Below are positions 26,801 to 27,980 of a stretch of DNA of 64,000 nucleotides, piece after piece. The position numbers were made by a program. The number at the start of each line of letters is the position of its first letter. Position 1 is the stretch's first letter. The stretch lies in NCBI RefSeq assembly GCF_009931435.1, contig NZ_CP043414.1. One strand, 5' to 3'. The stretch comes from Escherichia coli (GTDB lineage Bacteria > Pseudomonadota > Gammaproteobacteria > Enterobacterales > Enterobacteriaceae).

Positions 26801-27980
26801 TGGAAGGAGATGCTGTAGCCAAACCAGCCAGTCACAGTGGCAAACAGTGCGTTCAGCGCAGCGATCAGGGCGATAAAGCCGATCAGCATCGCGGCAACGA
26901 TAATAGCAACTTTGAAACCTGCCAGAATGTATTCACCCAGCATTTCGAAGAAGCTCTGACCTTCGTGCAGGTTGGACATCTGAATATTTTCTTCACTGGC
27001 ATCAACACGGTAAGGGTTGATCAGCGACAGCACGATAAAGGTGCTGAACATGTTCAGTACCAGCGCCGCAACGACGTATTTCGGCTCCAGCATCGTCATG
27101 TATGCACCAACGATGGACATCGACACGGTGGACATCGCCGTAGCTGCCATGGTGTACATACGATTGCGGGAGATTTTGCCGAGGATATCTTTATAGGCAA
27201 TAAAGTTTTCAGACTGACCCAGAATCAGAGAGCTGACGGCGTTGAAGGATTCCAGTTTGCCCATACCGTTGACTTTGGAGAGCAGGAAACCAATTGCGCG
27301 GATAATCACCGGCAACACGCGAATGTGCTGGAGAATACCAATCAGCGCAGAGATAAAGACGATTGGGCACAGCACTTTCAGGAAGAAGAATGCCAGGCCT
27401 TGATCATTCATGCTACCAAAGACGAAGTTAGTCCCTTCGTTGGCAAATCCGAGCAGTTTCTCAAACATTTCGGAGAAGCCTTTCACGAAGCCCAAACCAA
27501 CGTCGGAGTTCAGGAAGAACCACGCCAGTAACACTTCGATAACAAGCAGTTGAATAACATAACGGATACGAATTTTTTTGCGGTCGCTGCTTACCAGCAG
27601 TGCGAGAATCGCAACAACGGCAAGTGCCAGTACAAAATGAAGGACGCGGTCCATATTTGCTCCAAATATGAGGCAGGTTAAATTTCCGTGCACATTCTAT
27701 GTAACATGGTTAAGGAAAACGAGATCTGACACACACTATAATGACGTCCTGTGACAAGCTTCAAAAATAGTGAGCTGTCATACATTTCTGCTATGTTGTG
27801 TATGGAAGCTGAAAGTTATGTAAATGTGCTAACATTAAACATAATCACAACATTCAAGTCATCAATCTTTTCGTCGTCATAATTCTGGTCTATCAAAGAA
27901 ATCATCACAATCCACTTAAATGAATTTGATAATCATTCTCGTTTGACATAGCATGAAACATAGCAAAGGCTATGTTTTAG

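What the first reader, a model, noticed from the sequence alone, without database searches (positions are those of the whole stretch)
27926..27977. Adjacent Fur-box and MntR operator upstream of mntH
A perfect 9-4-9 palindrome (aaacatagc-aaag-gctatgttt) lies 13 bp upstream of the mntH start, preceded by a Fur-box-like ttgataatcattctc, implying dual iron/manganese repression. Useful as an internal positive control for regulatory-site calling in this window.
Basis: partly seen in the sequence, partly recalled or inferred. Interest (0 to 1): 0.2.

Follow-up and report, generated by a model that had tools for sequence, protein, structure and literature searches.

The report
Known Fur and MntR operators of mntH
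This is the textbook control region of the E. coli manganese importer gene mntH, with an iron-sensing Fur box over the promoter and a manganese-sensing MntR palindrome just after it; it is real, conserved and already known, so it works as a positive control but is not a discovery.

Summary
TTGATAATCATTCTC lies at 27926-27940. It is the 3' part of a 19-mer (27922-27940) that matches the Fur consensus at 15 of 19 positions. The perfect 9-4-9 palindrome AAACATAGC-AAAG-GCTATGTTT lies at 27956-27977 and ends 13 nt before the mntH ATG at 27990.

The window is E. coli chromosome (nupC | mntH - ypeC - yfeO), and both operators are identical to those of K-12.

Both sites score well above background:
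- The Fur match ties for best in the 64 kb (P about 0.005 for the 335-bp intergenic region).
- A matrix built only from the K-12 dps, mntS and mntP sites scores the palindrome at 26.7 bits. The next best in the window is 13.6 bits.

Conservation supports both sites:
- In 28 mntH upstream regions from seven enterobacterial genera, all 22 palindrome positions and 12 of 15 Fur-core positions are invariant. The 8 nt between the Fur core and the predicted -10 have no invariant position.
- The palindrome plus Shine-Dalgarno 32-mer is exact in 5383 of 5426 E. coli genomes.
- The same palindrome, again beside a Fur-box-like sequence, precedes sitA, the other Mn importer.

Verdict: already known (Patzer and Hantke 2001; Kehres 2002).

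The parts
27879..27915 (.). OxyR-type site (ATAA-N7-CTAT-N7-ATCA-N7-CCAC), immediately upstream of the predicted -35
   Evidence: It matches ATAGnTnnnAnCTAT-N7-ATAGnTnnnAnCTAT at 13/20 specified positions. That is not significant alone, since 14 other sites in the window reach 13 or more. It is nevertheless the best match at the same position in 25 of 27 orthologous regions (13-16/20). Its centre, CTATCAGAGAAATCA (27890-27904), is the only strongly conserved block upstream of the Fur box. The review PMC8632737 says the mntH promoter has an OxyR site.
27922..27940 (.).
   Evidence: It matches the consensus at 15/19, the joint best in 64 kb, with 6-bp-shifted matches either side and P about 0.005 for the intergenic region. 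The published Fur model gives 19.9 bits at mntH -56. In 28 sequences from 7 genera, 12 of the 15 core positions are invariant, with mean column identity 0.98.
27926..27931 (+). Predicted -35 hexamer TTGATA, inside the Fur box
   Evidence: The sigma-70 scan finds TTGATA-17 nt-TAGCAT, 9/12 matches. It is invariant in the 28-sequence alignment. The transcription start was not measured here.
27949..27954 (+). Predicted -10 hexamer TAGCAT
   Evidence: Found by the sigma-70 scan. Mean column identity across genera is 0.92, with variants TAACAT, TAGCTT and TAATAT. The implied start lies near 27961, which is an inference.
27956..27977 (.). MntR operator: perfect 9-4-9 inverted repeat AAACATAGC AAAG GCTATGTTT
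   Evidence: Read. Scores 26.7 bits with a matrix built from the other K-12 MntR-regulon sites. All 22 positions are the same in the 27 orthologous mntH loci, including the 6 positions not fixed by the search pattern. The 32-mer 27955-27986 is exact in 5383 of 5426 E. coli genomes.
27980..27983 (+). Shine-Dalgarno GAGG, 6 nt before the mntH ATG
   Evidence: Read from the sequence. GAGG is GGGG in one of the 28 aligned sequences and unchanged in the rest.
27990..29228 (+). mntH coding sequence (412 aa, Nramp-family Mn2+/H+ symporter)
   Evidence: ORF listed. Pfam Nramp, E 2e-128. Annotated as mntH in the 100%-identical record NZ_CP033850.1.
27920..27946 (+). Remnant of the small ORF ypeD (29 aa in K-12, b4819), here cut to 8 codons by TGG to TGA at 27944-27946; it overlaps the Fur box
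   Evidence: K-12 annotation. The alignment with K-12 shows G to A at 27946.

Best explanation
The stretch 27879-27989 is the promoter and operator region of the E. coli manganese importer gene mntH. Transcription most likely starts near 27961, from a sigma-70 promoter with -35 TTGATA (27926-27931) and -10 TAGCAT (27949-27954).

Fe2+-loaded Fur binds the 19-bp Fur box (27922-27940), which covers the -35 hexamer, and so keeps RNA polymerase off the promoter when iron is plentiful. Mn2+-loaded MntR is a DtxR-family dimer. It binds the 22-bp palindrome (27956-27977) that lies between the -10 hexamer and the ribosome-binding site, across the predicted start point. This blocks open-complex formation or promoter escape when manganese is plentiful. 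The two sites do not overlap, since 15 bp holding the -10 lie between them, so either repressor can act alone. An OxyR-type site (27879-27915) just upstream of the -35 allows induction by H2O2.

What was shown here: the sequences, their scores against background, their recurrence at other Mn-regulon promoters, and their conservation. What is inferred or taken from the literature: the start point, physical binding, and the metal dependence.
For: Identity of the locus: the window is 100% identical to E. coli FDAARGOS_497 with the order nupC | mntH - ypeC - yfeO. In the 356-bp K-12 comparison, K-12 is identical across the Fur box, the -10 hexamer and the palindrome. Within 27920-27989 the only difference is G/A at 27946.

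Fur box: 15/19 to the consensus, with 6-bp-shifted neighbours and P about 0.005. The published footprint-trained model gives 19.9 bits at mntH -56.

MntR box, regulon evidence: the same ATAGC-N4-GCTAT core sits 46 nt upstream of dps, on the rybA/mntS 5' end, and twice upstream of mntP in K-12. That is four hits of 14/18 or better in 7.8 kb, against one non-mntH hit in the 64-kb window. A matrix built from those four sites scores 27956-27977 at 26.7 bits, with the next best at 13.6 bits.

MntR box, other species: in a scan of 100,044 species genomes, all 32 Enterobacterales hits to AACATAGC-N4-GCTATGTT lie just upstream of a Mn importer gene. Twenty-seven are at mntH and five at sitA, and the sitA promoters also carry a Fur-box-like GATAAT.ATT next to the palindrome.

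Footprint: the palindrome is invariant at 22/22 positions and the Fur core at 12/15. The spacer 27941-27948 is invariant at 0/8 positions, and the upstream region has mean identity 0.67.

E. coli population: 27920-27989 is found in 5384 of 5426 genomes, while the adjacent 27850-27919 is found in only 282. The palindrome 32-mer is exact in 5383 genomes.

Regulator: mntR is present in 5421 of 5426 E. coli genomes and belongs to the DtxR family.

Promoter: the predicted promoter puts the Fur box on the -35 and the palindrome after the -10.

Literature: PMC8632737, PMC4676285, PMC8970401 and PMC13217887 all state that mntH is repressed by both Fur and MntR through separate sites. From my memory of the abstracts of Patzer and Hantke 2001 and Kehres et al. 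2002 (neither paper is held): the Fur motif overlaps the -35, the inverted repeat lies between the -10 and the RBS, and the OxyR motif lies just upstream of the -35.
Against: No binding or expression experiment can be run here, and the primary footprint and titration papers could not be read.

The transcription start is only predicted. A second sigma-70-like match (ATCACA-18 nt-GATAAT, 27904-27933) would put the Fur box on the -10 instead.

The cross-species set was retrieved with the palindrome itself, so 16 of its 22 positions are fixed by ascertainment. Only the other 6 palindrome positions, and the Fur box and everything else outside the palindrome, are free tests. Genera that have lost the site would not have been seen.

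The four training sites for the MntR matrix were located by their similarity to the mntH palindrome, so that matrix is not fully independent. What is independent is where those sites lie.

K-12 annotation places a translated small ORF (ypeD) starting at the position equivalent to 27920. This implies that some transcripts start further upstream than predicted.
Confidence: 0.95

Rival explanations
1. The palindrome acts as RNA. Once transcribed, it forms a 5'-UTR hairpin next to the Shine-Dalgarno sequence that controls mRNA stability or translation, rather than serving as a protein-binding DNA operator.
For: If 27950-27995 is transcribed in full, it folds into an 11-bp hairpin of -14 kcal/mol, z = -4.85 against shuffles.
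Against: With the predicted start near 27961 the left arm is not transcribed. The remaining RNA folds no better than shuffles (-4.1 kcal/mol, z = +0.9).

Across seven genera there is no compensatory change at all, and the loop AAAG is invariant too. That pattern fits base-specific protein contacts rather than pairing alone.

The same motif, with different spacers, occurs upstream of mntP, on the rybA/mntS 5' end, in the dps promoter and in sitA promoters.

There is no Rfam match at E up to 1.
Confidence: 0.03
2. The conservation of 27920-27989 reflects selection on the small protein YpeD, whose reading frame covers both motifs, and not selection on operators.
For: ypeD (b4819, 29 aa) is annotated in K-12 over exactly this stretch. 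A ribosome-profiling study reported it as translated, with homologues in Salmonella and Citrobacter koseri (bioRxiv 10.1101/2021.07.02.450978).
Against: The ORF is cut to 8-11 codons in this window, in at least two other E. coli haplotypes, in three other Escherichia-labelled genomes (E. whittamii, Escherichia sp. E1V33 and E. coli SCPM-O-B-8794), and in Kluyvera and Pseudocitrobacter. It also lacks an ATG/GTG/TTG start codon at the aligned position in two Citrobacter sequences. The two DNA motifs stay unchanged in all of these.

The conserved residues (NLIIIL and KHSKGYV) are exactly those encoded by the Fur box and the palindrome, and the codons between them vary.

All three codon positions within the boxes are invariant, which is not the pattern of protein-level selection.
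Confidence: 0.02
3. The Fur-like stretch is only an A+T-rich -35 region that resembles a Fur box by chance. Iron repression of mntH would then work elsewhere or indirectly, for example through Fe2+-MntR.
For: Fur consensus matches occur by chance in A+T-rich DNA. An equal 15/19 match lies inside the cysZ coding sequence at 10564. From my memory of Kehres 2002 and Ikeda 2005, Fe2+ can also act through MntR.
Against: Conservation extends over 15 nt, well beyond the 6-nt -35 hexamer. P is about 0.005 for this intergenic region. The footprint-trained model gives 19.9 bits, with a second overlapping site. Non-homologous sitA promoters pair the same two motifs. Fur-dependent repression of an mntH-lacZ fusion is reported in PMC4676285.
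Confidence: 0.03

Closest known systems
E. coli K-12 mntH promoter (Fur box plus MntR inverted repeat; Patzer and Hantke 2001, J Bacteriol 183:4806)
   Same: It is the same locus. In the K-12 alignment the Fur 19-mer, the -35, the -10, the 22-bp palindrome and the Shine-Dalgarno sequence are identical base for base. The flanking genes are also the same.
   Different: One SNP lies in the -35/-10 spacer: G to A at 27946, shared with 285 of 5426 genomes that carry the identical 70-mer. It truncates the overlapping ypeD ORF. There are seven further SNPs in the 70 nt upstream.
Salmonella enterica mntH promoter (OxyR, Fur and MntR motifs; Kehres et al. 2002, J Bacteriol 184:3151)
   Same: S. enterica subsp. 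arizonae and diarizonae have the identical 22-bp palindrome at the same distance from the ATG. They have a Fur core TTGATAATCATTATC and the OxyR-type block at the same position.
   Different: The Salmonella Fur core is one base closer to the consensus (ATTATC against ATTCTC). The spacer and the upstream sequence have diverged.
sitABCD (Mn/Fe ABC importer) promoters of Enterobacteriaceae
   Same: The same AAACATAGC-N4-GCTATGTTT palindrome sits next to a Fur-box-like GATAAT.ATT sequence, upstream of a Mn2+ importer. Salmonella sitABCD is repressed by both Fur and MntR (PMC8970401).
   Different: The promoter is not homologous and the spacer sequences differ (AGTT, TACG, CGCA, TGTA). Cedecea, Dryocola and Enterobacter carry a second tandem palindrome, ATATAGCAATTGCTATA. 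sitA is absent from this window and present in only 1253 of 5426 E. coli genomes.
Other E. coli MntR-regulon sites (mntS/rybA, mntP, dps)
   Same: They share the core ATAGC-N4-GCTAT, with 14-15 of 18 arm positions matching the mntH site.
   Different: They are imperfect palindromes. The two mntP sites lie about 400 nt upstream of the coding sequence. From my knowledge of Waters et al. 2011, which I could not read, MntR activates at mntP rather than repressing.
DtxR/MntR-family operators in Gram-positive bacteria (B. subtilis MntR, C. diphtheriae DtxR)
   Same: A metal-loaded dimeric winged-helix repressor binds an A+T-rich palindrome that overlaps a transporter promoter. E. coli MntR carries the Fe_dep_repress and Fe_dep_repr_C domains.
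   Different: The recognition sequence is different. No sequence-level comparison with those operators was made here.

Membership tests
Fur box (E. coli Fur operator) | Match to the 19-bp consensus GATAATGATAATCATTATC well above background | tested here: met
   15/19 at 27922-27940, the joint best of about 128,000 positions on both strands. On average 0.22 sites of 15 or more are expected per simulated 64 kb, and P = 0.005 per 335-bp intergenic region.
Fur box (E. coli Fur operator) | Overlapping sites offset by 3 or 6 bp, forming a Fur cluster as described by Chen et al. 2007 | tested here: met
   Secondary matches of 12/19 at 27916 and 13/19 at 27928, offset by -6 and +6. The published model lists 2 sites in a 25-bp cluster of 19.9 bits at mntH -56.
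Fur box (E. coli Fur operator) | Overlap with core promoter elements | tested here: inconclusive
   It overlaps the predicted -35 TTGATA, or the -10 of an alternative prediction. No 5' end was mapped here.
Fur box (E. coli Fur operator) | Conservation in orthologous promoters | tested here: met
   12 of 15 core positions are invariant across 28 sequences from 7 genera, against 0 of 8 in the adjacent spacer.
Fur box (E. coli Fur operator) | Fe2+-Fur binding and fur-dependent iron repression | not testable with these tools
   Literature only: PMC4676285 reports a Fur effect on an mntH-lacZ fusion, and the review PMC8632737 describes it. Patzer and Hantke 2001 is not held.
Enterobacterial MntR box (DtxR-family MntR operator) | Inverted repeat with core ATAGC-N4-GCTAT | tested here: met
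   A perfect 9-4-9 repeat at 27956-27977, with P = 0.0025 per intergenic region.
Enterobacterial MntR box (DtxR-family MntR operator) | The same motif at other promoters of the Mn regulon | tested here: met
   K-12 dps, rybA/mntS and mntP (twice). sitA in E. coli, Citrobacter, Enterobacter, Cedecea and Dryocola. The matrix built from the non-mntH sites gives 26.7 bits.
Enterobacterial MntR box (DtxR-family MntR operator) | Position between the -10 and the ribosome-binding site, as for repression at mntH | tested here: inconclusive
   The site starts 2 nt after the predicted -10 and ends 2 nt before GAGG. The promoter is predicted, not mapped.
Enterobacterial MntR box (DtxR-family MntR operator) | Cognate regulator encoded by the organism | tested here: met
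   mntR is found in 5421 of 5426 complete E. coli genomes and carries DtxR-family domains. It lies outside the window, and the window's own genome was not checked individually.
Enterobacterial MntR box (DtxR-family MntR operator) | Mn2+-MntR binding and mntR-dependent Mn repression | not testable with these tools
   Literature only: PMC8632737, PMC13217887 and PMC8970401.
OxyR binding site | Four ATAG/CTAT elements spaced at 10-bp intervals (ATAGnTnnnAnCTAT-N7-ATAGnTnnnAnCTAT) | tested here: inconclusive
   13/20 at 27879-27915. Fourteen other sites in the window score at least as well, so the match alone is not evidence.
OxyR binding site | Conserved position just upstream of the -35 in orthologues | tested here: met
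   It is the best match at the same offset in 25 of 27 orthologous regions (13-16/20). The central block CTATCAGAGAAATCA is conserved.

The most novel reading that the evidence does not exclude
The operator region doubles as coding sequence for a translated leader peptide. On this reading, YpeD (29 aa in K-12) has a role in mntH control, so the TGG to TGA change at 27944-27946 in this lineage would alter mntH regulation. The opposite reading is better supported here but is not formally published as far as I could see. It holds that the reported cross-species conservation of YpeD is a by-product of Fur-box and MntR-box constraint, and that ypeD is not a functional gene.
Probability: 0.08. Interest if true: 0.35.

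Novelty: already known. Interest (0 to 1): 0.05.

Why it matters
It matters as a calibration point and not as a discovery. The window contains a pair of experimentally characterised operators whose coordinates are now fixed: Fur at 27922-27940 and MntR at 27956-27977. Its predicted promoter elements and a probable OxyR site at 27879-27915 are also located. Any regulatory-site caller applied to this window should recover the first two and ideally the third.

The analysis also shows how strong real operators look under simple tests. Both score at or near the top of the 64 kb. The palindrome is invariant across seven genera while the neighbouring spacer drifts, and it recurs at non-homologous promoters of the same regulon.

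A practical warning follows for small-ORF annotation. The apparent amino-acid conservation of ypeD coincides exactly with the two operators.

Tried and rejected
Primary papers: Patzer and Hantke 2001, Kehres 2002, Waters 2011 and Anjem 2009 are not in the held library. Published footprint coordinates could therefore not be compared directly.

Literature search by sequence: a full-text search for ACATAGCAAAGGCTATGT found nothing.

Possible third MntR half-site: ACATAGCA at 27946-27953 is a direct repeat of part of the left arm. I rejected it because it depends on the lineage-specific A at 27946 and varies within E. coli and between genera (GGCATAGC, AACGTAGC, AACGTAAC). The copy TGCTATGTT at 27789-27797 is also not conserved outside Escherichia.

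New promoter from the SNP: the change creates a perfect TTGACA at 27943-27948, but reading the sequence shows no -10-like hexamer 16-18 nt downstream, so no new promoter is proposed.

OxyR consensus scan alone: it is not discriminating. The site is accepted only because of its positional conservation.

Rfam: no RNA family matched at E up to 1 in 27600-28100.

Counting exact Fur-box copies: a 32-mer search gave 3981 of 5426 genomes. This is limited by flanking SNPs and the 28-nt word size, so it is only a lower bound and not a measure of Fur-box variation.

Non-enterobacterial hits: the roughly 88 such hits of the genome scan are in line with the roughly 70 chance matches I expected for 16 specified bases in 298 Gb. 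They also include some unrelated repeat families and were not analysed further.

Full report
**1. What is in the sequence**

The stretch 27926-27977 reads TTGATAATCATTCTCGTTTGACATAGCATGAAACATAGCAAAGGCTATGTTT.
- 27956-27964 (AAACATAGC) and 27969-27977 (GCTATGTTT) are exact reverse complements separated by AAAG.
- Twelve nt follow (TAGAGGCACAAG, with GAGG at 27980-27983), and then the ATG at 27990.
- That ATG opens a 412-aa ORF which is an Nramp transporter (Pfam E 2e-128).

The coordinates, the sequences and the "13 bp upstream" statement are therefore all correct.

**2. Where the window comes from**

The 451 nt around the site match 5424 of 5426 complete E. coli genomes and are 100% identical to strain FDAARGOS_497. 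The annotation there reads pdeA - nupC (minus strand) | mntH - ypeC - yfeO. The nupC-mntH intergenic region is 27655-27989, which is 335 bp at 35% G+C.

Over 27920-27989 the window differs from K-12 MG1655 at a single base, G to A at 27946. The Fur box, both predicted promoter hexamers, the palindrome and the Shine-Dalgarno sequence are identical.

**3. Is it more than chance?**

- Palindrome. A perfect 9-4-9 inverted repeat appears in 0.25% of simulated 335-bp sequences of this composition.
- Fur box. Extended to 19 nt (27922-27940, GAATTTGATAATCATTCTC), the Fur-like element matches GATAATGATAATCATTATC at 15/19. That is the joint best score in the 64 kb, with 0.22 such sites expected per simulated window and P = 0.005 for the intergenic region.
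- Fur cluster. Weaker matches lie 6 bp to either side (12/19 and 13/19). This is the overlapping-site pattern described for Fur clusters (PMC2189734).
- Published model. The footprint-trained model of that paper lists mntH among the 42 strongest Fur clusters of the K-12 genome: 19.9 bits, two sites, centred at -56 from the start codon. That position corresponds to about 27934 here.

**4. Independent test of the MntR assignment**

I fetched the K-12 regions around the other reported MntR targets and scanned them for the palindrome. The best hits in 7.8 kb are the following.
- AAGTATAGCACCGGCTATGTGT, 46 nt upstream of dps.
- AGATATAGCACAGGCTATATTA, on the 5' end of rybA/mntS.
- Two sites about 400 nt upstream of mntP.

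All four match 14-15 of the 18 arm positions. In the whole 64-kb window only one non-mntH position reaches 14. A weight matrix made from these four sites alone scores 27956-27977 at 26.7 bits. The runner-up in the window scores 13.6 bits, and the best of 40 simulated windows scores 19.3 bits.

One caveat applies. The training sites were located by their similarity to the mntH site. The independent information is that they fall in the promoters of the known regulon.

**5. Other species**

All 32 hits in Enterobacterales lie immediately upstream of a manganese importer gene.
- 27 lie upstream of mntH, in five Escherichia-labelled genomes plus Citrobacter, Salmonella, Kluyvera, Pseudocitrobacter, Intestinirhabdus and an unnamed genus.
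- 5 lie upstream of sitA (ZnuA-family Pfam hits at E 1e-86; tblastn; E. coli sitA annotation).

The sitA promoters are not homologous to the mntH promoter. They still carry a Fur-box-like GATAAT.ATT next to the palindrome. The pairing of the two operators therefore recurs independently at the other Mn importer, which in Salmonella is likewise repressed by Fur and MntR (PMC8970401).

**6. Phylogenetic footprint**

In an alignment of the window with the 27 mntH upstream regions:
- The palindrome is the same at all 22 positions, apart from one alignment gap. This includes the four spacer bases and the two outer bases that the search pattern left free.
- The Fur core 27926-27940 has 12 of 15 invariant positions, with mean identity 0.98.
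- The -10 hexamer has mean identity 0.92.
- The 8 nt between the Fur core and the -10 have no invariant position, with mean identity 0.63.
- The 126 nt further upstream average 0.67.

The E. coli population shows the same contrast.
- The 70 nt 27920-27989 are retrieved from 5384 genomes, while the adjacent 70 nt 27850-27919 are retrieved from only 282.
- The 32-mer holding the palindrome and the Shine-Dalgarno sequence is exact in 5383 of 5426 genomes.
- Six haplotypes spanning the identity range differ mainly in the -35/-10 spacer.

**7. Geometry and mechanism**

The sigma-70 scan finds TTGATA (27926-27931), a 17-nt spacer, and TAGCAT (27949-27954). The Fur box then covers the -35. The palindrome begins 2 nt after the -10 and spans the predicted start near 27961. 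This is the arrangement I remember from the abstracts of Kehres et al. 2002 and Patzer and Hantke 2001: the Fur motif over the -35, and the inverted repeat between the -10 and the RBS. Neither paper could be read here.

[quoted passage not shown] A review states that the E. coli mntH promoter has separate MntR, Fur and OxyR sites and that the two repressors act independently (PMC8632737). The cognate regulator gene mntR belongs to the DtxR family and is present in 5421 of 5426 E. coli genomes.

The likely mechanism is promoter occlusion by Fe2+-Fur at the -35, together with a block at the start site by Mn2+-MntR. Binding, metal dependence and the start point are inferred and were not shown here.

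**8.

The one strongly conserved block upstream of the Fur box is CTATCAGAGAAATCA (27890-27904). It is the centre of a 37-nt match to the OxyR motif at 27879-27915.

The match is only 13/20 here and is not significant alone. It is, however, the best match at the same offset in 25 of 27 orthologues, at 13-16/20. It ends 10 nt before the -35. This agrees with the reported OxyR activation of mntH.

**9. Rival readings**

- An RNA hairpin (-14 kcal/mol if fully transcribed) is unlikely. The predicted start removes the left arm. There is no compensatory variation, and the loop is invariant. The motif also occurs in other Mn-regulon promoter regions, including about 400 nt upstream of mntP. No Rfam family matches.
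- Selection on the overlapping small ORF ypeD (b4819) does not explain the pattern. The ORF is cut to 8-11 codons in this window and in many other lineages while the motifs persist. Its conserved residues are exactly those encoded by the two boxes.
- A chance A+T-rich resemblance for the Fur box is countered by its conservation beyond the -35 hexamer and by its recurrence at sitA.

**10. Verdict**

This is the already-described dual Fe/Mn (plus H2O2) control region of mntH, identical in its functional elements to that of K-12. It is a good internal positive control and has no novelty. The only mildly new by-product is evidence that the conservation of ypeD is an operator artefact.

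Noticed in passing
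window 27920-27946 (and 27953-27997): The K-12 small ORF ypeD (b4819, 29 aa) starts at the position equivalent to 27920 and runs through the Fur box and the MntR palindrome into mntH. In this window TGG to TGA at 27944-27946 cuts it to 8 codons, and PGAP instead calls a 14-aa 'hypothetical protein' at 27953-27997. Across lineages the ORF is intact in some and truncated in others. Its conserved residues are those encoded by the two operators, so its reported conservation looks like a by-product of them.
   Followed up: partly
window 27920 versus predicted start near 27961: Ribosome-profiling evidence for ypeD translation in K-12 (bioRxiv 10.1101/2021.07.02.450978) implies transcripts that start upstream of 27920. 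Both sigma-70-like promoters predicted on the plus strand would start downstream of that position. The source of such transcripts is unexplained.
   Followed up: no
window 27812-27835: A second conserved intergenic block (GAAAAGTTATGT.A.TGTGCTAA) lies 50-70 nt upstream of the promoter-like TTGAAG-18 nt-TATAGT on the minus strand (27764 to 27735), which faces nupC. It is probably part of the nupC regulatory region (CRP/CytR, from general knowledge).
   Followed up: no
L052 ~545-586, L061 ~6409-6450, L081 ~6420-6461: The sitA promoters of Dryocola, Enterobacter sp. R1 and Cedecea carry two adjacent MntR-type palindromes (ATATAGCAATTGCTATA next to AAACATAGC-N4-GCTATGTTT) plus a Fur-box-like AATAATTATCATT. 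This is a tandem arrangement not seen at mntH.
   Followed up: no
L096 1348-1367; E. coli sitA promoters: A second perfect 9-4-9 palindrome of the same arms (AAACATAGC AGTT GCTATGTTT) occurs in Escherichia upstream of sitA. That promoter region is present in 1253 of 5426 complete E. coli genomes, including 29 places on plasmids.
   Followed up: partly
window 368-391 and 46988-47012: There are two other perfect inverted repeats that are not G+C-rich and terminator-like. GAACATAATCTGCAAATTATGTTC lies inside the cysP coding sequence, and GACCACAATACGACCGATTGTGGTC lies in the yfdX-frc intergenic region. Their function is unknown.
   Followed up: no
window 10564-10582: A 15/19 match to the Fur consensus (minus strand) lies inside the cysZ coding sequence. 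It equals the mntH score, has no supporting context, and is probably chance. It is a reminder that the consensus score alone does not identify a Fur site.
   Followed up: no
L062-L070 (Bacterium isolate P11BWT0bin.6), L087-L089 (Saprospiraceae MAG-109): The search pattern AACATAGC-N4-GCTATGTT recurs on nine contigs of one uncultured genome and three of another, often within 100 nt of a contig end. This suggests an unrelated dispersed repeat or mobile-element terminus that happens to share the palindrome.
   Followed up: no
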